Positions 1 through 37,279 of a stretch of DNA of 38,542 bases are shown in pieces (the first letter of the stretch is position 1; each line of letters opens with the position of its first letter). Position numbers and translations under genes: made by a program. Below the pieces are notes generated by a model. It did no database searches. It was given only the letters and a program-made list of their open reading frames with translations, and had not been told where the DNA came from. The DNA comes from a virus (Duplodnaviria > Heunggongvirae > Uroviricota > Caudoviricetes). The DNA is taken from the IMG/VR virus record IMGVR_UViG_2531839531_000011; one strand, given 5' to 3'.

Positions 1-1020
1 TTAATCCCCCGTGGACACTGCGTGGACACTTACGCCACCTTTCAGCGGATTAAGGGCCACCGCATCCTGCAGGTAATCCGGTGCAAAATGTGCATATGCC
101 ATTGTTTGCTGAATGGTTGCGTGACCAAGAGTCTTCTGAAGCGCAATAATGTTTCCTCCGTTCATCACAAAATGGCTGGCGAACGTATGCCGCAGCACAT
201 GTGCAGCCTGGCCTTTTGGCAAATCGGGCTTAACTCTTTTCAGCGCCAGACAGAATTCCCGGTACTTCACCTCAAACAAGCCGCCTGTTTCTCTGGTTTT
301 GATCGCCTCACAAACTGCCTGCGAAATTGGCACCGTTCTCTTCCGACCATTTTTGGTTTCAAGAAACGTTACACGGTTATGAACTATCTGTTCACCACGA
401 AGCTTACAAGCTTCACTCCAGCGCGCCCCTGTGCTTAAACACAAAAGCGCAACACGCCAGTAGTCGCCCTCCAGTGTATCGAGCAATAGCGCTACTTCCT
501 TCTGGGACAGGAAAGCCATTTCTCGCGGGGATACATAAAGAATAGAAATCCCCCTTACCGGATGCTCTGCATCCCAGAGGCCTATTTTCTTCAGTACGGT
601 AAACATTCCGGATAACCGATTCATGTATCTGTTAGCAGATGACGGTTTCAATCCATCAGCTATCTTTTGAGAACGCCACGCGATAATTTTCAGCTTATCA
701 AGATCCACAGCCTGCATATCAGCGCCAAGCTCATTGATTATGTTGCGCAGTTGTTTTCGGTCTTCTTCCGCCTTACGCCTGTGCTGGCCGTGATACATCC
801 ACCACAACTCAAGCAAATCATTTAGCGTTCGACGATCACGGTAGCCCTGTATATATTCCCGCTTTTCAGCGTTCGCCATGATGTAGCGTTCAGTGGCCAC
901 CGCTACCGATTTTTTGTCAAATACCTTACGTACGCGCTTTCCCTTGCGTCCGTTCGGCCTGATGTCCAGCAAATAACGACCATCTTCGAGCTTCTTAATC
1001 GACATTGCGAAGCCCTCCAA
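1..1020 (-). CDS. int: Tyrosine integrase (P2 Int-like); true start may be the internal Met at MSIKKLEDGRY (~1005)
   Basis: 339-aa ORF; C-terminal catalytic-region residues (ARWSE, HVLRHTFASHF, LGHATIQQTMAYAHF) typical of phage integrases; position at prophage end next to repressor. Confidence 0.9.
   Translation of the reverse strand: MEGFAMSIKKLEDGRYLLDIRPNGRKGKRVRKVFDKKSVAVATERYIMANAEKREYIQGYRDRRTLNDLLELWWMYHGQHRRKAEEDRKQLRNIINELGADMQAVDLDKLKIIAWRSQKIADGLKPSSANRYMNRLSGMFTVLKKIGLWDAEHPVRGISILYVSPREMAFLSQKEVALLLDTLEGDYWRVALLCLSTGARWSEACKLRGEQIVHNRVTFLETKNGRKRTVPISQAVCEAIKTRETGGLFEVKYREFCLALKRVKPDLPKGQAAHVLRHTFASHFVMNGGNIIALQKTLGHATIQQTMAYAHFAPDYLQDAVALNPLKGGVSVHAVSTGD
11..28. other. Candidate attL core: 18-bp sequence gtggacactgcgtggaca, repeated directly (17/18) at 37363..37380; lies inside the last codons of int
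   Basis: Direct repeat seen by eye at both prophage ends; not statistically tested. Confidence 0.35.
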
Positions 1021-1101: not shown

Positions 1102-1689
1102 TCAGCGGGGTAATTTTTGTTTTGTTTCGGTTGAACTCTGATCGCCCTCCAAACTGGAGAAGCCATCAAGAGAGAGAGGCGGAGCAATCTGCCCCGTCGC
1201 AGCATTAGTTTGATTAAACATTACCCAATCCGAATACTTCCGAAAACGGGGATGATTCAAAATCAGGAGTAGCGTTTCTCCAGGCATCATTCTTCCCAAT
1301 ATTTCATAATTTTTGAGATTGTTTTGAGATACCCCTGTCATCTCTTCCATCGCTCTACGCGACAATCCCTCTGCCTCTCGAATCAGGCGGAGTTTTTCTC
1401 CAAGCTCAGATACCACTTCAGATCCATTACCAGCCAATGGCGTGGGTTCAATTTGCCCATTATCTGGAGACACTTGCCCAGTCATAAGCCAAAGCGCGTA
1501 TTTTTTGAACCTATCAACCTGTAAAACTCGCTCAACCAACTCTGCTCTAGCAGGCTGATGACCTGTTTCATATTTCTGAATAGTATTAAGTGGAATCCCT
1601 GTAATATCAGAGAATTGACGTCTGCTTAACTCTTCCGCCTCCCTCATTCTCATGAGTCTTTGCGAATAGTCTATTGACACGTTTCTCAT
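1102..1689 (-). CDS. Immunity repressor candidate with two tandem XRE-type helix-turn-helix domains (ORF extends to 1737; start at MRNVSIDY preferred)
   Basis: Duplicated motif (LSRRQFSDITGIPLNTIQKYETG and LSRRAMEEMTGVSQNNLKNYEILG); aaggag RBS before second ATG; divergent from cox-like gene. Confidence 0.7.
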   Translation of the reverse strand: MRNVSIDYSQRLMRMREAEELSRRQFSDITGIPLNTIQKYETGHQPARAELVERVLQVDRFKKYALWLMTGQVSPDNGQIEPTPLAGNGSEVVSELGEKLRLIREAEGLSRRAMEEMTGVSQNNLKNYEILGRMMPGETLLLILNHPRFRKYSDWVMFNQTNAATGQIAPPLSLDGFSSLEGDQSSTETKQKLPR

Positions 1690-1739
1690 GCGAGAAATAT
1701 ACTCCTTTCTAAATTGAGAAATGCAAGAACAACTCAAAT

Positions 1740-4052: not shown

Positions 4053-4252
4053 ACAAAAAGACTTGGTTTCGCGCATACATGTGGGCGCTGGTATGCGTCC
4101 TCATTTCTATCATTCTGTATGCAGGACTACTCCCCCGAATGATTTCATCAGACAGCTCCTTCCTGGTATTGCTGGGCATTTTCATTGCCATGCTGTACCC
4201 GGCAGGCGTTGTTCGCCTTTTCAGTAAGTACATCAAGGAAATCAAACAATGA
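4049..4252 (+). CDS. Small two-helix membrane protein (67 aa)
   Basis: Two hydrophobic segments (WALVCVLISIILYAGLL and FLVLLGIFIAMLYPAGVV); ATGA overlap with SPFH gene. Confidence 0.55.
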   Translation: MNKKTWFRAYMWALVCVLISIILYAGLLPRMISSDSSFLVLLGIFIAMLYPAGVVRLFSKYIKEIKQ

Positions 4253-5079
4253 AGAAATTCAGACTCTTTCAGATTATCCCGCTTTTTGCCGCCATCCTGC
4301 TGGTTGGTTGCGATCGCGTTGAGCCAGGTAATGTGGGCATCAAAGTCAACAAACTGGGCGACGACAAAGGCGTCGGTGAAGTGGTTGGCGTTGGCCGCTA
4401 CTGGACAGGCTGGAATACAGAGGTTTACATCTTCCCGACCTTCAAACAAATGAAGACCTACGATGAGCCGTTCAGCTTCCAGATGAGTGACGGCACAACC
4501 ATCGGCTATCACATCGGTGTGGCCTACAAGGTTGATCCATCCAAAGTTACCACAGTGTTTCAGACCTACCGCAAAGGCGTGGATGACATTACCGACACCG
4601 ACCTGCGCCAGAAGATCGCCGATGCACTCAACCGGCTGGCCAGCAAAATGACCACCGATAAGTTTATCGACGGTGGTAAGTCTGAACTGCTGGATTCAGC
4701 ACTTAAAGATATTCAGGAAGAGATGACCCCCATCGGCATTCAGGTCATGAGCCTCTCTTATGTCGGTAAACCGGAATATCCGCCAACCGTTATCGACAGC
4801 ATTAACGCCAAAGTCACGGCAAACCAGAAAACCCTGCAACGTGAACAGGAAGTCAAGCAACGCGAAGCTGAAGCCAACATGCTGCGCGCAGAAGCTGCCG
4901 GACAGGCCGATGCCATTCGCACAAAAGCCCAGGCTGAAGCCGACGCCATTCGTTTACGCGGCGAAGCTCTGCGCCAGAATCCCGGCGTTATGGAGCTGGA
5001 AGCGATCAACAAATGGAACGGCACGCTGCCGCAATACATGACCAGTAACACCGCTGTTCCGTTCGTTCCCGTGAAGTAA
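4249..5079 (+). CDS. SPFH/Band-7 (stomatin-prohibitin-flotillin-HflK/C-like) lipoprotein
   Basis: 276 aa; signal peptide with lipobox LLVGC; central SPFH-like region; C-terminal Ala/Glu/Gln-rich coiled-coil (EAEANMLRAEAAGQADAIRTKAQAEADAIRLRGEA). Confidence 0.7.
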   Translation: MKKFRLFQIIPLFAAILLVGCDRVEPGNVGIKVNKLGDDKGVGEVVGVGRYWTGWNTEVYIFPTFKQMKTYDEPFSFQMSDGTTIGYHIGVAYKVDPSKVTTVFQTYRKGVDDITDTDLRQKIADALNRLASKMTTDKFIDGGKSELLDSALKDIQEEMTPIGIQVMSLSYVGKPEYPPTVIDSINAKVTANQKTLQREQEVKQREAEANMLRAEAAGQADAIRTKAQAEADAIRLRGEALRQNPGVMELEAINKWNGTLPQYMTSNTAVPFVPVK

Positions 5080-5130: not shown

Positions 5131-5307
5131 GTATGCCGTTCTCACAAAAAAACCGCTTGCCATGCCGCAATCAGCCAGGTTACATTTCCGCTGCACCTCA
5201 TAAAACGGGTGCCGGGATTCTCAACCTGCTGACAAACGAAGCGCACAACCGCGCCAGCGGTTTTTTTGTGCGTACTGTATTGCCACGTCTTTTTCGCATC
5301 AGAATTA

Positions 5308-5386
5308 TGGTGGGGCGTACGGGGCCGACTTCGGTCGGGCCGGTTTCTTCGTTTGCCGGTGTTGAGAACCCCGTACGTCTCGCCAC
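5308..5386 (+). ncRNA. Candidate structured RNA element: long-range stem (GGTGGGGCGTACGGGG pairing with CCCCGTACGTCTCGCCACC) enclosing a UUCG-tetraloop hairpin
   Basis: Complementarity seen by eye in a ~320-bp region with no credible ORF; strand and function unknown. Confidence 0.25.
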
Positions 5387-5449
5387 CCCGAGATTCTCAA
5401 CTCTGGTTGGTGAGTATCCAAAAACTCACAAACGAAGAGGCCAAACACC

Positions 5450-5680
5450 ATGGCAAACCGCAAACAGCACCGCACTATCGCGGAGCGTCGTCACATCCAG
5501 ACTGAAATCGATCGCAGACTCACCCGCGCTGCACACATCGCCTTTATCATGCAATCCAACACATTGCACAGACTCAACAGCACTATTTCAGCCGACTACT
5601 GCGCCGCTGTATTCAGCTATCTGGCGGAAGACCTCCTGTCTCTTCAGGATCTCATCCAGCAGCAAAACAAACTCCATTAA
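5450..5680 (+). CDS. Hypothetical protein (76 aa) upstream of replication genes
   Basis: GAAGAGG RBS before ATG; MANRKQHRTIAERRH basic N-terminus. Confidence 0.5.
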   Translation: MANRKQHRTIAERRHIQTEIDRRLTRAAHIAFIMQSNTLHRLNSTISADYCAAVFSYLAEDLLSLQDLIQQQNKLH

Positions 5681-5752
5681 TTCCTGTTCCGGGCCTTTCC
5701 TGCACCTTGCGGCGGGAGGCCTTCGCACATCTGTAACAAGAGGATTGCCGCA

Positions 5753-6118
5753 ATGATTCTCGCCAACGACTTTCTTGAATACCTGCTCAACACAGAGCGT
5801 GATCTTGCCGCTCGCGTGCGTGATCGTTATGACATGTACCTGAAATCCCTGCCTGTACCGCAGCTCGCTGACGGAAAGATTGTTATTGATGGTCGTTACA
5901 TGATTGACAGCCACGAGGGAAATTACAGGCTTTACCGCATTGAAGGTGGCACCCCGTCCGTTATTGGCATTTACCAGCGCCCATCCTCTGCAATCGTCGA
6001 TGTGATTGCCGACAGCATCCGCATCACACATCGCCATGCCGACACAGAAGACACCGTGCTGGAAATTCAGCGGCTGGCTACAGTCTGCCGCGACACCCTG
6101 AATGGCATGACGAAGTAA
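5753..6118 (+). CDS. Hypothetical protein (121 aa) immediately upstream of gene A
   Basis: ORF with start overlapping previous stop region; no domain recognised. Confidence 0.5.
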   Translation: MILANDFLEYLLNTERDLAARVRDRYDMYLKSLPVPQLADGKIVIDGRYMIDSHEGNYRLYRIEGGTPSVIGIYQRPSSAIVDVIADSIRITHRHADTEDTVLEIQRLATVCRDTLNGMTK

Positions 6119-6124
6119 ATCACT

Positions 6125-8947
6125 ATGACGGCAGAGTACATCAGGGACTGGCAACAACCGCGCCACGCAGTGGGGCGTGAAGGAACGGGGATCCCCGCTC
6201 CTGAATCCGCGCTTTCCTCCTGGCTGGATGCCTACCGGGCAGAGAACGAGCGCCGCCAGGAAATGGCTGATGCGGCGTTCTCCGCCACGCCGCTGGGCAA
6301 CCTGATTAATAAAAGCCTGGACGCACAGGAAAAACAGGACAAAACCATCACACTGGCAGGAGACGCCAGAAAACAGGCACGCGGCGCGGTGGATGAAGCC
6401 ATGGCCTCGCTGCGCCTGCTGCCGTCCTATCTGCGCGATCCGCTTATTCGCCACCTCTCCTTCCTGCGCAAAAAACAGGAAGCCGATCGCCGGAAAGGCA
6501 AAAAGAGCTGGCAGGCTGAACGCTACGCGCGCGGAACCCTGCGCAAAATATTCGAACGTCTGGAGCGCACCGACAGCCGCTGGCTGACACCGGGTTATCG
6601 CTCCCTTGCCGGACGCGAACGCCTGGACGATTTGCTTTACCTGCCGCAGCTTAACAAGCACCAGATACAGACGCTGGCCACCATGACGGCGGCAATGTTC
6701 AGCAGCACCTTTGAGACTCTCTGTGATGGTTTCGGTGCCAGAGATGGCGAGCTGACCATGGATGTAACGCTGAAGGCGTATCAGATGCTGGCCCGCATGG
6801 CGTTACACCTGCACGCCATGCCTCCACATTATGACGCACTGACAACAGACAAAGACCGGAGGAACGAACCGGACACGGAACTGCTGCCGGGCGCAATCCT
6901 TCGCCTGACCTGTGCGGACTGGTGGAAACGCAAACTGTGGCTGTTACGTTGTGAGTGGCGGGAAGAACAACTCCGCGCCGCCTGTCTGGTTTCCAGAAAA
7001 ACATCACCCTATCTGAGCCAGGACGCGTTAAGCGAGTTTCGCGCACAGCGCGAGAAAACACGCGATTTCCTGAAAAGTTTCATGCTGGAAAATGAAGACG
7101 GGTTCACGATTGATCTCGAGACGGTGTATTACGCGGGAGTAAGTAACCCGGTTCACCGTAAGGCAGAAATGATGGCCACCATGAAGGGACTGGAACTTCT
7201 GGCCGAAGCCCGTGGCGACAAAGCGGTGTTTCTGACTGTCACCTGCCCGTCAAAATACCACGCCACAACAGAGAACGGTCATCCGAATCCCAAATGGAAC
7301 GGGGCCACCATGCGCGACTCCAGCGATTACCTGGTTAACACGTTTTTTGCGGCGGTCCGCAAAAAACTGAACCGCGACGGCCTGCGCTGGTATGGCATCC
7401 GCACGGTGGAGCCTCACCATGACGGCACCGTGCACTGGCATATGATGGTCTTTGCTCATCCGGAAGAAATCGACACCATTGTGTCCCACACCCGCGATAT
7501 TGCCATTCAGGAAGACCGCCACGAACTGGGCAATGATATTACTCCGCGCTTTAAGGCGGAGTACGTCGACGGCTCAAAAGGCACGCCAACCAGCTACATC
7601 GCCACCTACATCGGAAAGAACCTGGACAGCCACGCCGTGGATGGCATCGACCCGAAAACGGGCAAGCCACGCGTTGACCACGAAACCGGAAAATCAATGG
7701 CCGAGAGCGTGGAGCGCGCCATCGGCTGGGCGCGCCTTCACCGGGTCCGCCAGTTCCAGTTCTTTGGCATCCCCTCCCGTCAGGTGTGGCGTGAACTGCG
7801 CCGCCTTGCCAGCCAGATGGCACGCAACCCGGAAGGCCCGCAACGACTGAAGGATGACGCAATGGATGCAGTGCTCGCTGCCGCTGATGCCGGGTGTTTT
7901 GCCTCCTACATTGAAAAACAGGGCGGCGTACTTGTTCCACGCAAAGACTACCTGATTCGCACCGCCTACGACCTCGCAGATGAGCTGAACGATTACAGCG
8001 AACAGAGCGTACAGATTTACGGGATCTGGTCACCACTCATCGGGGAGTCCTCCCGTGTGTGCACGCATCCGGATAACTGGAAGCTGGTAAGACGCAAACC
8101 GGAAGCGGAAGACAGCGCCCGCGAAAATGGTTTTGACCTTCAGGGCGGCCCTGCCGCCCCTTGGACTCGTGGCAATAACTGTCCCCGTGTACAGGAAACG
8201 GACAACAACGGGACAGAACAGCCGGAAGAACGGCCAGCACCGTGGCCGCAGCTCCCTGACGGCGTTGAAGTGAACGAATGGATGCGCTCACTGAAACGGC
8301 ACGAACGCCGGGCGCTGATGCGTTCGCTTCGTGACAAACAGGCAAAAAACAGCAGTGATGAAATGCAGAGCTGGACACAGAGCCGCAAACAGCAGCGGCC
8401 TTTGCCTGATAACCACGAATTACTCGCTAAAGAATGGCGGGAGTCTGCTGAATCTCTCGGCCTGCATATCGGTGAACAGCAGATGCAGCACCTGTTACGG
8501 GGCGGCAGTCTGTACGTTGACGGCAGCATCATTGCACCGCAGGGATTTGAAATTGTACGCAAACCGGATACCCGCCCGGACAGCCGAATCACGCAGCTCT
8601 GGCAGCGCCTGAGCCGTAATCACGGCGTAAGCAGCACGGAGATCCGCCATAACCCGGTCGCCAGCTATCTGGCACAGCTGGGGGCATCAGACCCCGAAGC
8701 CGCCGCACGCCTGGCATCCACACTTCAGCAGGACCAGAACACCATGAAAACACCCGTTACCGTGCTTTCTGACATGCTGCGCGCCATCCGCGACGCAGAG
8801 TACGCACAGAGAATCTGTGAAACCACTGAACGCGCCCACCGCAAAGCAGACCTGCTGCGGGGTGGCCTGACCCGTGGGAACAAAAAACAGACAGAAACGG
8901 GATTCACAAATCCCGTAAATGAGCAAAAAACGCGCCGCGATATATGA
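6125..8947 (+). CDS. A: Replication initiation endonuclease (P2 gpA-like rolling-circle initiator) with long C-terminal extension
   Basis: 940 aa; motifs HDGTVHWHMMVF and YIATYIGK match the histidine and catalytic-tyrosine motifs I recall for GPA-family initiators. Confidence 0.85.
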   Translation: MTAEYIRDWQQPRHAVGREGTGIPAPESALSSWLDAYRAENERRQEMADAAFSATPLGNLINKSLDAQEKQDKTITLAGDARKQARGAVDEAMASLRLLPSYLRDPLIRHLSFLRKKQEADRRKGKKSWQAERYARGTLRKIFERLERTDSRWLTPGYRSLAGRERLDDLLYLPQLNKHQIQTLATMTAAMFSSTFETLCDGFGARDGELTMDVTLKAYQMLARMALHLHAMPPHYDALTTDKDRRNEPDTELLPGAILRLTCADWWKRKLWLLRCEWREEQLRAACLVSRKTSPYLSQDALSEFRAQREKTRDFLKSFMLENEDGFTIDLETVYYAGVSNPVHRKAEMMATMKGLELLAEARGDKAVFLTVTCPSKYHATTENGHPNPKWNGATMRDSSDYLVNTFFAAVRKKLNRDGLRWYGIRTVEPHHDGTVHWHMMVFAHPEEIDTIVSHTRDIAIQEDRHELGNDITPRFKAEYVDGSKGTPTSYIATYIGKNLDSHAVDGIDPKTGKPRVDHETGKSMAESVERAIGWARLHRVRQFQFFGIPSRQVWRELRRLASQMARNPEGPQRLKDDAMDAVLAAADAGCFASYIEKQGGVLVPRKDYLIRTAYDLADELNDYSEQSVQIYGIWSPLIGESSRVCTHPDNWKLVRRKPEAEDSARENGFDLQGGPAAPWTRGNNCPRVQETDNNGTEQPEERPAPWPQLPDGVEVNEWMRSLKRHERRALMRSLRDKQAKNSSDEMQSWTQSRKQQRPLPDNHELLAKEWRESAESLGLHIGEQQMQHLLRGGSLYVDGSIIAPQGFEIVRKPDTRPDSRITQLWQRLSRNHGVSSTEIRHNPVASYLAQLGASDPEAAARLASTLQQDQNTMKTPVTVLSDMLRAIRDAEYAQRICETTERAHRKADLLRGGLTRGNKKQTETGFTNPVNEQKTRRDI

Positions 8948-8989
8948 AGCGCGCACAAAACAGGCAAAAACGGGATTTCAGAATCCCGT
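8897..8989. promoter_or_regulatory. Two copies of a 20-bp palindrome ACGGGATT-N4-AATCCCGT (8897..8916 inside the A 3' end; 8970..8989 upstream of parM); candidate ParR-binding centromere/operator or terminator
   Basis: Perfect 8-bp inverted repeats read directly, spaced ~73 bp. Confidence 0.4.
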
Positions 8990-9023
8990 AAACGATTAAT
9001 TAATCAACATAAGGAAAATCGAC

Positions 9024-9983
9024 ATGAAAATTTGTATCGACGACGGCTCCACCAACATCAAGCTGGCATGGACTGAGAACGGCGAACGCCGCAACGCCAT
9101 CAGCCCGAACAGCTTCAAGTCGGAATGGTCTGCGCCGTTCGGTGGCACGCAGCCCGCAAACTACATGCTTGATGGCGTGCGCTATGGTTTTGATCCGGTC
9201 AGCGATCGCTTTGTCCAGACGACCGACACGCAATACCAGTACAGCGATGTGAATGTCATTGCCATTCATCACGCGCTGGTCAAATCAGGTATCACACCAC
9301 AGGAAGTGGATGTGGTTGTCACCCTGCCACTGAGCGAGTATTTCGACACAAACGCCCAGCCGGATATGACCAACATCAACCGCAAAAAAGCGAATGTTAT
9401 GCGCCCGGTGGAGTACCAGAACGGTGAGGCATTCACTATCCGTAACGTGCGGGTTATGCCTGAATCCATTCCGGCTGGCTTTAAAGCACTGGCTGACATG
9501 AGTCCGTTTGAATCCCTGCTGATTGTGGATTTAGGCGGAACCACGCTGGATGTGGCAAAGGTTCAGGGACAACTGGCAGGTATCAGCCAGGTGTTTTGCG
9601 ATCCACACGTAGGCGTTTCCCTGATGGCCGATGCAGTACTCTCGGTGATGGCCGCTAACGGTATGCGTACCAGTCACCACATCGCCAATACCATTATCGA
9701 ACATCGCCATGATGAAGCCTGGCTGCGCCAGCACATCCACAATGACGCGCATTACGCCAGCCTGATGGCGGTTATTCGTGAAAAGGAAGAAACACTGAAA
9801 CAACGCGTGATCCGCGCGCTGGCGGGTTTTTCGGGTTACGGGCGGGTGATGGTTGTCGGTGGCGGGGCGGAGATTGTGGCACCCGCTATCCGCGAAGCCT
9901 GCGGAGTTAATGCGACTTTCATCGCGGACGGGGTGCCACAGTTTGCTCTGGTTAAGGGGCTGTACGCAATGGACAAGGAGTAA
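9024..9983 (+). CDS. parM: ParM/StbA-like actin-fold partition ATPase
   Basis: 319 aa; N-terminus MKICIDDGSTNIKLAW and downstream blocks closely resemble recalled plasmid R1 ParM; DLGGTTLD phosphate motif. Confidence 0.8.
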   Translation: MKICIDDGSTNIKLAWTENGERRNAISPNSFKSEWSAPFGGTQPANYMLDGVRYGFDPVSDRFVQTTDTQYQYSDVNVIAIHHALVKSGITPQEVDVVVTLPLSEYFDTNAQPDMTNINRKKANVMRPVEYQNGEAFTIRNVRVMPESIPAGFKALADMSPFESLLIVDLGGTTLDVAKVQGQLAGISQVFCDPHVGVSLMADAVLSVMAANGMRTSHHIANTIIEHRHDEAWLRQHIHNDAHYASLMAVIREKEETLKQRVIRALAGFSGYGRVMVVGGGAEIVAPAIREACGVNATFIADGVPQFALVKGLYAMDKE

Positions 9984-9987
9984 ACCA

Positions 9988-10299
9988 ATGACGACTCCAA
10001 CCAGACGGATAAGTTTCTATCTGAAGCCCGCCGCCGTCAAGAACGAAGGTGAAGCATGCGCCTGGCTGGACAGCCTTACACCAGAAGCGCGCAAAAGCGG
10101 CCAACGCGTGGCTTTTCTGGCCGGGCTGGCACTTCTGAAAATGAATCCGGCAGAGGCTTACCGACTGGCTGCATGGGCTGATGATGAAGCGTTATCAGTG
10201 ACACAAACCAGGACAGAACGCCCCGCGTCACAGCCAGTATCAACCGCACAGATAACCAGTCAGATGGCCGGAAATATCCGGGCGTTATTTCCCGAATAA
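9988..10299 (+). CDS. parR: ParR-like DNA-binding adaptor
   Basis: 103 aa directly after parM with AAGGAG RBS; AFLAGLAL and C-terminal NIRALFPE resemble recalled R1 ParR. Confidence 0.55.
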   Translation: MTTPTRRISFYLKPAAVKNEGEACAWLDSLTPEARKSGQRVAFLAGLALLKMNPAEAYRLAAWADDEALSVTQTRTERPASQPVSTAQITSQMAGNIRALFPE

Positions 10300-10362
10300 C
10301 ACAACATCAGGGCGCATCCGCCCTGATGACTTTAACCCGGGAACATAAACAAGGGGGACACA

Positions 10363-10698
10363 ATGCAACACATTGACAGAGAAAAAGCGCAGCGACTGAT
10401 TGAGCGGATGGAAGCGCTGGCGAAAGAAGAAAATGTCAACATCCAAAAAATAGCTGAATGTGGCCAGATAGTTCTTCGTCGTGAAAAAGACCTCAAACAA
10501 CTGATGTCTGGCGAAACCAGCAAAACATGGACTTCAGGTGAGGAGACGATTTATTGCAGCTTCTGCAATAAATCCCAGTACGAAGTCACAAAGGTGATTG
10601 CCGGACCGTCTGTTTACATCTGCAATGAGTGCGTTGATTTGTGCAATGAAGTTATCAGGAGAGAAGTGACAGACCATGAAGAAAAAACGCATGAATGA
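10363..10698 (+). CDS. Stand-alone ClpX N-terminal-type C4 zinc-binding domain protein
   Basis: 111 aa; C-terminal block [38 protein letters not shown] matches the ClpX zinc-binding domain signature. Confidence 0.7.
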
Positions 10699-10864
10699 CG
10701 AATTTGACGGCTTTTAATTTTATCGGGGCGCACTGTCGCCCTGCATGGAGAAAAACAATAAAAAAGATGAATAACTGCTCATGTCAGACGCGCTGCGGGC
10801 AAGTCTGGCACCCTGCCCTGTCTCCGCAAAGGCTGTTGTCTTAACACGACAGAGTATGCCAGCA

Positions 10865-11272
10865 TTAAATATAATCTTCTTCGTAGTCGCTGATTAATTC
10901 ATTGCCATAATCAGACAGCAATTTCAAAGCAAAGGTAACTTCCTCAAGGGTAGCTATCCCCATTGCTGAAAACACCGTTAATTTAACCAGCAGCAGGGAG
11001 TTTGAAAGTTCGGAAGAGTTCATCATTAAAAATATTGATGCAGCCTGAAAAGCTGTGCGTTTATTCCCATCATGAAAGGCATGAGCCTTGGCTATACCAA
11101 TCAAATACATAGCAGCCAGAGCATGAATATCATCAACCCCTTCATAGTAGTGTAGTGTCCTGACGCGATTTAAAGCACCTTCAAGTAGCCCGTCATTGGC
11201 ATTTCCGCTCTGGGGTAAAGTTTCAGCATGGATACGTTCTACTTGTTCTTTTGACAAAAACACTATGTCCAT
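10865..11272 (-). CDS. doc: Doc (death-on-curing) Fic-family toxin
   Basis: 135 aa; Fic-type motif HAFHDGNKRTA; start overlaps antitoxin stop (TGATG). Confidence 0.85.
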   Translation of the reverse strand: MDIVFLSKEQVERIHAETLPQSGNANDGLLEGALNRVRTLHYYEGVDDIHALAAMYLIGIAKAHAFHDGNKRTAFQAASIFLMMNSSELSNSLLLVKLTVFSAMGIATLEEVTFALKLLSDYGNELISDYEEDYI

Positions 11273-11628
11273 CAGTTATCCTCAAGCTTTTTAATGATAT
11301 CCGCATGTTTTTCTCTTGTACGCTTCATTGCATCTTCAAAAGACAATCCTTTTTTTCTCTGTGCGACAAGAGCTGGATGACGTTTTTCCAGATCTCTCAC
11401 TGCATTTATTAAGAGTGGTTGCTTCATTTTGTTTATTTGATCCCGCAGTTTTTTGGTTTTGCCAAGGACAGCCCGTATTTCAGGACTAAGATCAGAACCA
11501 GCAAGAACAACATCCTTCCCTCCCTGCGCCGTGATAACGACACTGCCACCGGAAGAAAGGTAATCCAGAATTTCACTCAGGTTCTCACGAAATTCATCAT
11601 CAGTTACAGTTTTCATATTCATTTCCAT
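11272..11628 (-). CDS. phd: Phd/YefM-like antitoxin candidate (start may be a downstream Met)
   Basis: Small acidic-C-terminus protein immediately upstream of and coupled to doc. Confidence 0.6.
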   Translation of the reverse strand: MEMNMKTVTDDEFRENLSEILDYLSSGGSVVITAQGGKDVVLAGSDLSPEIRAVLGKTKKLRDQINKMKQPLLINAVRDLEKRHPALVAQRKKGLSFEDAMKRTREKHADIIKKLEDN

Positions 11629-11639
11629 TATGCACGCCC

Positions 11640-11740
11640 ATAACGTAAGTATAACGGCTTGTTGGGCAGTAATAACACCGCCATATTTTCATTTTATACA
11701 CCGCACAATAGTGCACAAATTTGCACAATTTTTTTGAACA
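11640..11740 (-). promoter_or_regulatory. Candidate phd-doc promoter/operator with repeated TGCACAA motifs
   Basis: gtgcacaaatttgcacaattttttt directly upstream of the antitoxin start. Confidence 0.3.
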
Positions 11741-36385: not shown

Positions 36386-37279
36386 ATGAAAAATGTGATT
36401 ATTTCTATAGGCGCATCATTTATATCAATTAGTGTGCTACCTGCTCACGCAGCAACTGAGCATAATAACTTTAAGTCATCACTCCAGTGCCGAGCAATAG
36501 AAAATAATAAAGAAAGACTTTCTTGTTATGATAAGTCAATACAACCGACTCGAACGACAGTTGCTGAAAAATTCGAAAGCAGAGATCAATGCCCTGATGA
36601 GAAAGATGATGACAGACGTTTATCTTGTTATGACCGTTTTTTTTCTCCAACATTTACTCCGCCTGTAAGCTCAAAATCTAAAGTGAAACAGCTAGTAACA
36701 ACAGAGACTCAGCAACCAAATCTTTCTGAGATATCTAAATGTCGAGCAGAAAACGATAAAGAAACTAGAGTAAACTGCTACGATAAACTATTTCCACAGG
36801 AAAAAGCTACGCAATCTAAATCAAAATTAGAGAAAGCCACAGACTCAGGAAAATGGCACACATCCATTACTACATCGCCAATTGATGATTCGAAAAATGT
36901 AATTTTATCGTTAGAAAGTGATGATTATATAAGAACTCCATTTGGAGAAGCGGTTACCCCTACTCTGTTTATAGCTTGCCGAGAAAAGAAAACCGAAGTA
37001 TTTCTTAATTGGGATGTATATTTAGGCCTTGAACAAACCAGCATGCTGTATCGCCTTGATAAACAGAAAGCAGTTGAGCGAAACTGGCTAGTATCTACAG
37101 ATACAAAGGCTGTTTTTTATAAAGGCAATGACATTAACTTCATCAGAAAACTAGCCAACTCAAACAAAATGTATGCAAGAATAACCCCTTATAATGAAAG
37201 CCCTGTAAGTGCAACTTTCAATTTAAACGGCCTGTCAACCACGCTAAAACCGCTTCAAGAAGCCTGTAACTGGAAATAG
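36386..37279 (+). CDS. Secreted protein with three Cys-containing repeats (C-x10-R-L/V-S/N-CYDK/R) and a C-terminal domain, AT-rich cargo gene
   Basis: 297 aa; signal peptide ...VLPAHAAT; repeats at RLSCYDK, RLSCYDR, RVNCYDK. Confidence 0.6.
   Translation: MKNVIISIGASFISISVLPAHAATEHNNFKSSLQCRAIENNKERLSCYDKSIQPTRTTVAEKFESRDQCPDEKDDDRRLSCYDRFFSPTFTPPVSSKSKVKQLVTTETQQPNLSEISKCRAENDKETRVNCYDKLFPQEKATQSKSKLEKATDSGKWHTSITTSPIDDSKNVILSLESDDYIRTPFGEAVTPTLFIACREKKTEVFLNWDVYLGLEQTSMLYRLDKQKAVERNWLVSTDTKAVFYKGNDINFIRKLANSNKMYARITPYNESPVSATFNLNGLSTTLKPLQEACNWK

What the first reader, a model, noticed from the sequence alone, without database searches (positions are those of the whole stretch)
8897..10299. 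ParM/ParR-like actin-type partition pair with flanking palindromes inside an integrating prophage
Directly after gene A, where P2 carries tin/old-type variable cargo, there is a ParM-like ATPase and a ParR-like adaptor. Two copies of ACGGGATT-N4-AATCCCGT lie upstream, one inside the A coding end, and could be a parC-like centromere or operator. A partition system in a phage that also has an integrase and sits in the chromosome is unusual. It could reflect a phage-plasmid lifestyle option, segregation of excised replicating genomes, or a co-opted function.
Basis: partly seen in the sequence, partly recalled or inferred. Interest (0 to 1): 0.6.

Follow-up and report, generated by a model that had tools for sequence, protein, structure and literature searches.

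The report
ParMR partition cassette in P2-like prophage
A P88-type (P2-like) prophage carries a real, intact plasmid-style actin partition pair (ParM and ParR) with two palindromic repeats upstream; it is common in E. coli, already annotated and already noted in the literature, but its role in an integrating phage has not been tested.

Summary
parM (9024-9983) and parR (9988-10299) follow replication gene A. Two exact copies of ACGGGATT-N4-AATCCCGT lie at 8897-8916 and 8970-8989.

- **ParM** is a close relative of plasmid R1 ParM (PDB E 6e-92).
- **ParR** belongs to Pfam Plasmid_stab_B. Its profile finds the solved pB171 ParR. It has the expected layout: conserved N-terminus, hypervariable linker, conserved C-terminal tail.
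- **The palindromes** sit inside two 42-nt direct repeats. These repeats travel with parMR as one cassette (about 8883-10300) and are absent from a sister phage that lacks parMR.
- **Selection:** both genes are under purifying selection (dN/dS 0.05 and about 0.25).

The window is a P88-like prophage (genus Xuanwuvirus). The cassette occurs in about 24% of complete E. coli genomes, almost always on the chromosome. Rousset et al. 2022 already reported that about a quarter of P2-like phages carry a putative partition system.

My best reading is that this is a working type II segregation module. It is probably co-transcribed with A and probably acts on infecting or excised phage circles. The closest analogues are srpMRC of SXT/R391 elements and AlpAC of prophage CGP3. 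Stable plasmid maintenance looks unlikely. ParR binding to the palindromes and the biological role are both inferred.

The parts
8881..8922 (+). Repeat unit 1 of the candidate centromere/operator. It contains palindrome 1 (8897-8916, ACGGGATTCACAAATCCCGT) and overlaps the last ~21 codons of gene A.
   Evidence: 42-nt direct repeat, 81% identical to unit 2. Exact palindrome. The left boundary of the cassette maps here: L121 has a different A 3' end and homology resumes at 8883; L164 has the same A up to ~8885 but no palindromes and no parMR.
8970..8989 (+). Palindrome 2 (ACGGGATTTCAGAATCCCGT), within repeat unit 2 (8954-8995), in the A-parM spacer, 34 nt upstream of the parM ATG.
   Evidence: Present in all 79 related loci that include the upstream region. 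The loop varies (TCAG/TAAA in 19 of 51 distinct sequences) while the arms are largely kept.
9024..9983 (+). parM, an actin-fold segregation ATPase (319 aa). RBS AAGGA at 9011-9015.
   Evidence: Pfam StbA_N 2.9e-82 and ParM C-terminal domain 3.2e-68. R1 ParM structures E 6e-92 over residues 2-316. DDGSTNIK, DLGGTTLD and GGGA motifs invariant against plasmid ParMs. 80/80 related loci keep a 319-aa ORF, dN/dS 0.05. PHROG 691 'partition protein'.
9988..10299 (+). parR, the adaptor/centromere-binding protein (103 aa). It starts 4 nt after the parM stop.
   Evidence: Pfam Plasmid_stab_B 1.6e-24. Phage-only profile's top PDB hit is pB171 ParR 2jd3, E 0.0097; with plasmid ParRs added, 6e-11. hhalign against plasmid ParRs gives 96.9%. 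N-terminal RRISFYLKP invariant, linker 65-92 hypervariable, C-terminal N-I-x-x-x-F-P conserved and shared with plasmid ParRs. 75/78 intact, dN/dS 0.22-0.29.
10305..10328 (.). GC-rich 10-bp-stem hairpin directly after parR. Probable end of the transcription unit and right edge of the conserved block.
   Evidence: Terminator-like site, scored on the minus strand. Homology among related phages commonly ends at 10299-10354.
6125..8947 (+). Gene A, the P2-type rolling-circle replication endonuclease. Upstream neighbour and probable co-transcribed partner.
   Evidence: Pfam Phage_GPA 2e-130. No plus-strand terminator-like site and no sigma-70-like promoter between about 5400 and the parR stop.

Best explanation
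This is a functional R1-type (type II, ParMRC) DNA segregation module that belongs to a lineage of integrating P2-like phages (P88/Xuanwuvirus).

Shown:
- ParM is an intact actin-fold ATPase.
- ParR has the family's layout: a ribbon-helix-helix-type N-terminus, a disordered variable linker and a conserved C-terminal tail.
- Two 42-nt repeats, each with a 20-bp palindrome, sit upstream and are inherited with the genes as one cassette.
- Both genes are under purifying selection.

Inferred mechanism:
- ParR dimers bind the four half-sites. The two palindromes are 73 bp apart, about 7 helical turns, so they face the same side of the helix.
- The ParR tails capture growing ParM filaments.
- The filaments push sister copies of the circular phage genome apart.

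Inferred timing and role:
- No promoter or plus-strand terminator separates A from parM, so the pair is probably made with the replication protein A. That would happen after infection or induction, not in the repressed lysogen.
- Its substrate would then be the extrachromosomal, A-replicated circle. It would distribute copies to both daughter cells before integration or during transient excision, or organise replicating genomes in space.
- This parallels srpMRC of SXT/R391 elements and AlpAC of prophage CGP3.
For: - Homology: ParM; ParR.
- Cassette unity: the left boundary at ~8883 is shared by two independent mosaics, and the sister phage L164 lacks both parMR and the palindromes.
- Specificity: the exact half-site occurs only in the two palindromes in this window. 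Of 119 IMG/VR loci with the exact palindrome, 108 have the parM start within 200 nt and one more has a truncated parM about 500 nt away. Five are cut by a contig end. Five are unrelated single copies.
- Selection: parM dN/dS 0.05 with 80/80 intact; parR 0.22-0.29 with 75/78 intact; the N- and C-terminal parts are constrained and the linker is relaxed.
- Operon context: a strong Pe-like promoter at 1674-1703; no plus-strand terminator-like site from ~5400 to the parR stop; a hairpin after parR.
- Integrated state: 1455-1747 chromosomal places against 2 on plasmids.
- Carrier phages are viable: P88 is inducible and phiSM is spontaneously active (PMC6456863).
- Precedents for partition systems expressed on induction in integrating elements: PMC4489591 and PMC4446434.
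Against: - No experiment links ParR to the palindromes.
- The ParR DNA-reading strand is invariant in all relatives found, so no covariation test was possible.
- The candidate centromere has only two repeat units. Plasmid parC sites are long arrays of 10-11-bp iterons (PMC5016525).
- Many natural variants carry one to three mismatches in the palindromes.
- On the minus strand the palindromes score as terminator-like hairpins.
- Co-transcription with A rests only on a negative consensus scan.
- A sister phage lacks the cassette, so it is dispensable for the backbone if that prophage is viable.
- The benefit of segregation to a phage that integrates or lyses is conjecture.
Confidence: 0.55

Rival explanations
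1. Facultative phage-plasmid. The cassette lets these phages persist as stably inherited low-copy plasmids instead of, or as well as, integrating. This is the guess of the first reader and of Rousset et al. 2022.
For: The partition pair is canonical. PLSDB holds a 34,461-bp circular record that is a complete P88-like phage. The only other phage in the collection with a ParM is D6, a P1-like plasmid prophage. A Phd/Doc addiction-type module lies nearby in this window. PMC9122126 proposes this.
Against: There are 1455-1747 chromosomal places against 2 on plasmids in complete E. coli genomes, and up to 4 copies share one chromosome. Integrase, repressor and cox are intact. The 34-kb circle is 100.0% identical over 9 kb to an integrated prophage in another strain, so it may simply be an excised circle caught by assembly. 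The only replication function seen is the early-operon A protein, which I infer is repressed in lysogens by analogy with P2. Phd/Doc is variable cargo, absent from most relatives.
Confidence: 0.15
2. The genes are a real ParMR pair, but the palindromes are not its centromere. They would be RNA hairpins or terminators, or sites for another protein, and ParR would bind elsewhere or nowhere.
For: Both palindromes score as terminator-like on the minus strand. As RNA the region folds well (z -4.3). The architecture is unlike plasmid iteron arrays. Many variants have imperfect symmetry.
Against: No minus-strand gene reads into them, and a better hairpin (10305-10328) already sits at the cargo boundary. 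On the plus strand no T-run follows them. They are inherited with parMR and absent without it. The paired arrangement is found only next to parM. Substitutions give no consistent strand-specific wobble pattern. Rfam finds no match in the region.
Confidence: 0.2
3. Hitch-hiking or repurposed cargo. The pair would be a plasmid-derived passenger with no role in phage DNA handling, or a weapon against competing plasmids or phages, in keeping with the neighbouring defence hotspot.
For: It lies in the gpA-gpQ interval known as a defence hotspot (PMC9122126; PMC13586616). A sister phage carries an AAA ATPase plus S8 peptidase in its place.
Against: Strong purifying selection and near-universal intactness. 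It forms a phage-specific clade: ParM is at most 52% identical to any plasmid ParM, and ParR is not detectable on true plasmids by tblastn, so cross-binding to plasmid centromeres is unlikely. It has its own cis repeats. No PADLOC match. It is conserved within the lineage while the cargo downstream varies.
Confidence: 0.1

Closest known systems
ParMRC (StbAB) of plasmids R1/R100, and ParR of pB171
   Same: ParM aligns end to end with R1 ParM (E 6e-92) and keeps the nucleotide-binding motifs. Gene order is parM then parR, with repeats upstream. The ParR profile matches the solved pB171 ParR (2jd3), and the three-part ParR layout with a conserved C-terminal tail is shared.
   Different: The host replicon is an integrating phage. 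ParM is at most 52% identical to plasmid ParMs and ParR 18-25%. The upstream site is two 42-nt units, each with a 20-bp palindrome, in a 76-bp spacer that overlaps the end of gene A. Plasmids have a 270-425-bp region with arrays of 10-11-bp direct iterons around a promoter (PMC5016525). No own promoter was detected.
srpMRC of SXT/R391 integrative conjugative elements (Carraro et al. 2015, PMC4489591)
   Same: It is a type II-like partition locus in an element that normally sits in the chromosome. It is expressed only when the element is activated and acts on a rolling-circle-replicating excised circle. Its centromere is made of a few direct and inverted repeats. A toxin-antitoxin module sits beside it.
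   Different: SrpM and SrpR are only distantly related to R1 ParMR, whereas the phage pair is a clear ParM/ParR homologue. The element is conjugative rather than a virus. Its function was tested; here it was not.
AlpAC/alpS of Corynebacterium glutamicum prophage CGP3 (Donovan et al. 2015, PMC4446434)
   Same: An integrated prophage encodes an actin-like filament former and a co-transcribed DNA-binding adaptor that binds upstream repeats. The genes are induced early after excision and are needed for efficient replication of the phage circle.
   Different: AlpC belongs to a different actin-like family and the host is Gram-positive. No sequence comparison was run here. The roles proposed there (membrane transport, replication efficiency) are not shown for P88-like phages.
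StbA/StbB of phage-plasmid D6 (P1-like)
   Same: It is the only other phage in the 50,697-record phage collection with a ParM homologue (48% identical), followed by a ParR-type gene.
   Different: D6 is maintained as a plasmid. It has a 266-bp upstream region with TCTCA-type direct repeats.

Membership tests
Type II (ParMRC) partition system | Actin-fold ATPase of the ParM/StbA family with intact nucleotide-binding motifs | tested here: met
   Pfam StbA_N 2.9e-82 and ParM C-terminal domain 3.2e-68. R1 ParM structures E 6e-92, residues 2-316. DDGSTNIK, DLGGTTLD and GGGA invariant.
Type II (ParMRC) partition system | Small adaptor gene directly downstream of parM with a ribbon-helix-helix-type N-terminal DNA-binding domain | tested here: met
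   Pfam Plasmid_stab_B 1.6e-24. Phage-only profile's top PDB hit is pB171 ParR 2jd3 at E 0.0097, and 6e-11 with plasmid ParRs added. hhalign 96.9% over the N-terminal 67 columns. The fold itself was not confirmed: the single-sequence AlphaFold model was unusable (pLDDT 48.6).
Type II (ParMRC) partition system | Conserved ParR C-terminal tail that docks into ParM | tested here: inconclusive
   A C-terminal N-I-x-x-x-F-P motif is invariant across phage ParR alleles despite a hypervariable linker, and it aligns with R-N-x-x-x-x-F-P-D of plasmid ParRs. Its dN/dS is 0.03-0.13. Binding to ParM cannot be tested with these tools.
Type II (ParMRC) partition system | Cis-acting centromere: repeats in one locus upstream of the operon, bound by ParR | tested here: inconclusive
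   Two 42-nt repeats with 20-bp palindromes lie upstream and are inherited with the genes. There are only two units, they are palindromic rather than a tandem iteron array, and ParR binding is untested.
Type II (ParMRC) partition system | Own promoter inside or next to the centromere, repressed by ParR | tested here: inconclusive
   The consensus scan finds no sigma-70-like promoter on the plus strand between 8600 and 10800. A negative consensus scan does not exclude a weak promoter.
Type II (ParMRC) partition system | Stabilises an unstable low-copy replicon in cis | not testable with these tools
   Needs a plasmid stabilisation assay.
Phage-plasmid (plasmid prophage) | Prophage maintained extrachromosomally in lysogens | tested here: not met
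   1455-1747 chromosomal places against 2 plasmid places in complete E. coli genomes. The one 34-kb circular record is identical to an integrated prophage elsewhere.
Phage-plasmid (plasmid prophage) | Plasmid-type replication module active in the lysogenic state | not tested
   Only the P2-type A endonuclease was identified. No systematic search for a plasmid replicon was run.

The most novel reading that the evidence does not exclude
In about a quarter of E. coli P2-like prophages, rolling-circle replication by A is coupled to an actin-type segregation machine that uses a minimal centromere of two palindromes. This would give an integrating phage a short-lived, actively partitioned episomal phase before integration, after reversible excision or in a carrier state. 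That phase would raise lysogen yield or prevent loss of the phage. The hypervariable ParR linker and its two allele classes might additionally tune the system between co-resident phages.
Probability: 0.3. Interest if true: 0.55.

Novelty: already known. Interest (0 to 1): 0.33.

Why it matters
If the module works as proposed, a very common group of E. coli prophages uses a cytoskeletal motor during the window when its DNA is free in the cell. That would bear on how lysogeny is established and how excised prophages avoid being lost. It would also add a virus to the integrating elements (SXT/R391 ICEs, CGP3) that blur the line with plasmids. The cassette is small (about 1.4 kb), self-contained and easy to test. 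As it stands, it is a well-supported annotation plus an untested hypothesis that is already in print.

Tried and rejected
- **Covariation between ParR and the palindromes.** Impossible: the ParR N-terminal strand RRISFYLKP is invariant in every relative retrieved.
- **More distant phage relatives.** The single-protein and alignment-based scans of IMG/VR returned the same group with 98-100% identical ParM. The genome-collection scan gave 3 close loci.
- **Strand-specific wobble analysis of palindrome variants.** Mixed result: palindrome 2 changes are mostly G-U compatible on the plus strand, while palindrome 1 changes are mostly compatible on the minus strand or constrained by coding. No conclusion.
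- **Differential conservation.** The sequences are too similar (about 97%). Only the loop of palindrome 2 stands out as variable.
- **Structure prediction of ParR.** The single-sequence model had pLDDT 48.6 and was discarded, and no fold search was run.
- **Promoter search upstream of parM.** Nothing passed the consensus scan or inspection by eye.
- **Similarity of the palindromes to plasmid iterons.** None seen.
- **Rfam and PADLOC.** No match for the region or for the proteins.
- **Whether the strain with the 34-kb circle also has an integrated copy.** Its assembly did not show up in the E. coli genome collection.
- **Literature searches with 'ParM' by word start.** They mostly matched author names.


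Full report
**What is in the sequence**

The window is an integrated P2-type prophage. It starts with an integrase (1-1020, minus strand), a two-HTH repressor (1102-1737, minus strand) and cox (1802-2089). A plus-strand early region follows, ending in the replication endonuclease A (6125-8947; Pfam Phage_GPA 2e-130).

parM (9024-9983, 319 aa) comes next. parR (9988-10299, 103 aa) starts 4 nt after the parM stop.

The motif ACGGGATT-N4-AATCCCGT occurs exactly twice, at 8897-8916 and 8970-8989. About 0.02 matches are expected by chance, and none of 100 shuffles gave two. The first copy is inside the last codons of A. The second is in the 76-bp spacer. The exact 8-mer half-site occurs nowhere else in 38.5 kb.

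Each palindrome sits in a 42-nt direct repeat (8881-8922 and 8954-8995, 81% identical). The repeats are 73 bp apart start to start, about seven helical turns.

**Identity of the proteins**

ParM:
- It matches Pfam StbA_N (2.9e-82) and the ParM C-terminal domain (3.2e-68).
- It aligns over residues 2-316 with the solved R1 ParM (E 6e-92).
- The nucleotide-binding motifs DDGSTNIK, DLGGTTLD and GGGA are invariant against plasmid ParMs.

ParR:
- It matches Pfam Plasmid_stab_B (1.6e-24).
- A single-sequence search of the PDB found nothing.
- A profile of phage ParRs alone has the solved pB171 ParR (2jd3) as its top hit at E 0.0097. Adding three plasmid ParRs gives 6e-11.
- Profile-profile comparison with plasmid ParRs gives 96.9% probability over the N-terminal 67 columns.

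Across 17 to about 45 phage alleles the N-terminal RRISFYLKP and the following helices are conserved. Residues 65-92 are hypervariable. The C-terminal N-I-x-x-x-F-P is invariant and aligns with the C-terminal R-N-x-x-x-x-F-P-D of plasmid ParRs. This is the known ParR layout: a DNA-binding domain, a flexible linker and a ParM-docking tail (review PMC5016525).

**What the element is and how common it is**

The region is 97.7% identical to Escherichia phage P88. It matches 14 phage records (genus Xuanwuvirus, and Citrobacter phage phiSM), where the genes are already annotated as ParM or partition protein.

It is present in 1308 of 5426 complete E. coli genomes, at 1455 chromosomal places against 2 on plasmids. 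A query spanning the A 3' end and parM gives 1619 against 2.

PLSDB holds seven records. One is a 34,461-bp circle that is a whole P88-like phage with its integrase. Four others are replicons of 227 kb to 1.4 Mb. The 34-kb circle is 100.0% identical over 9 kb to an integrated prophage in another strain. It may therefore be an excised circle.

**The palindromes belong to parMR, not to A**

I compared about 80 related loci.
- The block A-parM-parR is conserved up to 10299-10354.
- A variable region follows, 10300-11700. Here it holds a ClpX zinc-finger protein and Doc/Phd.
- The portal side is conserved again from 11703.

Two independent mosaics place the left edge of the partition cassette at about 8883, which is the start of repeat unit 1.
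- L121 has a different A 3' end, and homology resumes at 8883.
- L164, a chromosomal P88-like prophage, has the same A up to about 8885. It has no palindromes and no parMR. An AAA ATPase and an S8 peptidase follow A instead.

In IMG/VR, 119 loci carry the exact palindrome. In 108 the parM start lies within 200 nt, and one more holds only a truncated parM about 500 nt away. Five are cut by a contig end. Five are unrelated single copies, consistent with chance. The cassette is therefore about 8883-10300: repeats, parM and parR.

**Is it functional?**
- parM: 80 of 80 loci keep a 319-aa ORF. Mean dN/dS is 0.05.
- parR: 75 of 78 loci are intact. dN/dS is 0.22-0.29 overall.
- Within parR, dN/dS is 0.13 in the N-terminal part, 0.03-0.13 in the tail and 0.5-0.6 in the linker.

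The pair forms a phage-specific clade. The closest plasmid ParM is 52% identical. tblastn with ParR finds no true plasmid among 72,556 records. The only other phage with a ParM is D6, a P1-like plasmid prophage (48% identical). This argues against a recent plasmid fragment or a decaying passenger.

**Expression context (inferred)**

A strong Pe-like promoter (TTGACA-18-TATACT) lies at 1674-1703. From about 5400 to the parR stop there is no plus-strand terminator-like site. The scan found no sigma-70-like promoter upstream of parM. A GC-rich hairpin (10305-10328) follows parR.

The simplest reading is that parMR is the distal end of the transcription unit that contains A. It would then be made when the phage replicates, not in the repressed lysogen. 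This rests on consensus scans only.

**Comparison with plasmid centromeres**

Three plasmid-type loci (IncI, IncF and D6) have 266-424 bp upstream of parM with arrays of 10-11-bp direct iterons. This matches the textbook description (PMC5016525). The phage has only two units, each palindromic, split by 53 bp. No sequence similarity to those iterons was seen.

ParR binding to the palindromes is therefore inferred from four things: position, co-inheritance, uniqueness, and the habit of ribbon-helix-helix proteins of binding repeated half-sites. Covariation could not be tested, because the ParR DNA-reading strand is invariant. Only 19 of 79 loci have two perfect palindromes. The rest carry one to three mismatches, which a protein site would tolerate.

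On the minus strand the palindromes score as terminator-like. However, no minus-strand gene reads into them, and a stronger hairpin already sits at the cargo boundary.

**Prior knowledge**
- Rousset et al. [quoted passage not shown]
- The phiSM paper lists the gene only as a fitness factor (PMC6456863).
- I found no functional study of the cassette.
- Tested precedents exist for partition systems in integrating elements. srpMRC of SXT/R391 ICEs is expressed on activation and stabilises the rolling-circle-replicating excised form. [quoted passage not shown]
- AlpAC of prophage CGP3 is induced early and is needed for efficient replication of the phage circle (PMC4446434).

**Verdict**

The centromere idea is reasonable and is now backed by cassette-boundary evidence. 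The claim of unusualness does not hold: the feature is common, annotated and already noted in print.

My best explanation is a working type II segregation module that acts on extrachromosomal phage circles during replication (confidence 0.55). Stable plasmid maintenance is the main rival (0.15). It is disfavoured by the overwhelmingly chromosomal location.

Novelty is "already known" as to existence and kind. The function, the two-palindrome centromere and the timing of expression remain open and are easy to test. Interest is 0.33.

Noticed in passing
window 10363-10698 (+): A 111-aa protein consisting of a short N-terminal part plus a ClpX-type C4 zinc finger (Pfam zf-C4_ClpX 2.9e-17; PHROG 6797, unknown function). 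It is variable cargo directly after parR and occurs in many relatives with or without Phd/Doc. It may mimic or compete with the ClpX N-domain. I recall from the P1 literature, not from any tool result, that ClpXP degrades the Phd antitoxin.
   Followed up: partly
window 10865-11628 (-): Doc toxin (135 aa; TIGR01550 2.3e-14) and Phd-type antitoxin (118 aa). This is a P1-style addiction module in the variable hotspot between parR and the portal gene. It is absent from most related phages.
   Followed up: partly
window 5193-5390 (+): Rfam matches to isrK (5193-5267, 62 bits) and C4 antisense RNA (5303-5390, 79 bits), inside an Ash-family ORF region (5133-5756) upstream of gene A. Promoter-like sites lie at 5157-5186 and 5280-5308, and a plus-strand terminator-like hairpin at 5247-5262. 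It looks like a P1/P7-type antisense control module within the early region.
   Followed up: no
window 9988-10299 and loci L002-L084: ParR comes in two allele classes (103 and 104 aa, about 52-57% identical) next to nearly identical parM and palindromes. Recombination break points lie inside parR, at about 10043 and 10133-10190. The linker (residues 65-92) is hypervariable, with dN/dS 0.5-0.6.
   Followed up: partly
L001 (NZ_CP148288.1, 34,461 bp circular): A complete P88-like phage, with integrase, is deposited as a plasmid of an E. coli isolate from a cat. It is 100.0% identical over 9 kb to a chromosomal prophage in strain Z1323HEC0067. Whether it is an episome or an excised circle could not be decided.
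   Followed up: partly
L164 (NZ_CP173557.1) 5172-8542: A sister prophage with the same A gene carries an AAA-family ATPase plus an S8 peptidase where this window has parMR. This is probably a defence-type cargo pair.
   Followed up: no
window 36386-37279 (+) and 4249-5079 (+): A VasI-family (type VI secretion) protein lies near the right end of the prophage; the phiSM paper lists the same gene as phage ORF1. An SPFH/Band-7 protein lies in the early region. Both look like phage-borne cargo.
   Followed up: no
L083 (NZ_JBQPOM010000071.1): A genome record titled Vagococcus sp. holds a 226-kb contig with this E. coli-type prophage (ParM 98% identical). This probably reflects contamination or mislabelling of the assembly.
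   Followed up: no
window 1102-1737 (-): The repressor-position gene encodes a 211-aa protein with two helix-turn-helix domains. The related prophages in L001 and L166 have repressors of about 95-105 aa instead. The immunity regions differ among phages that share the same parMR cassette.
   Followed up: no
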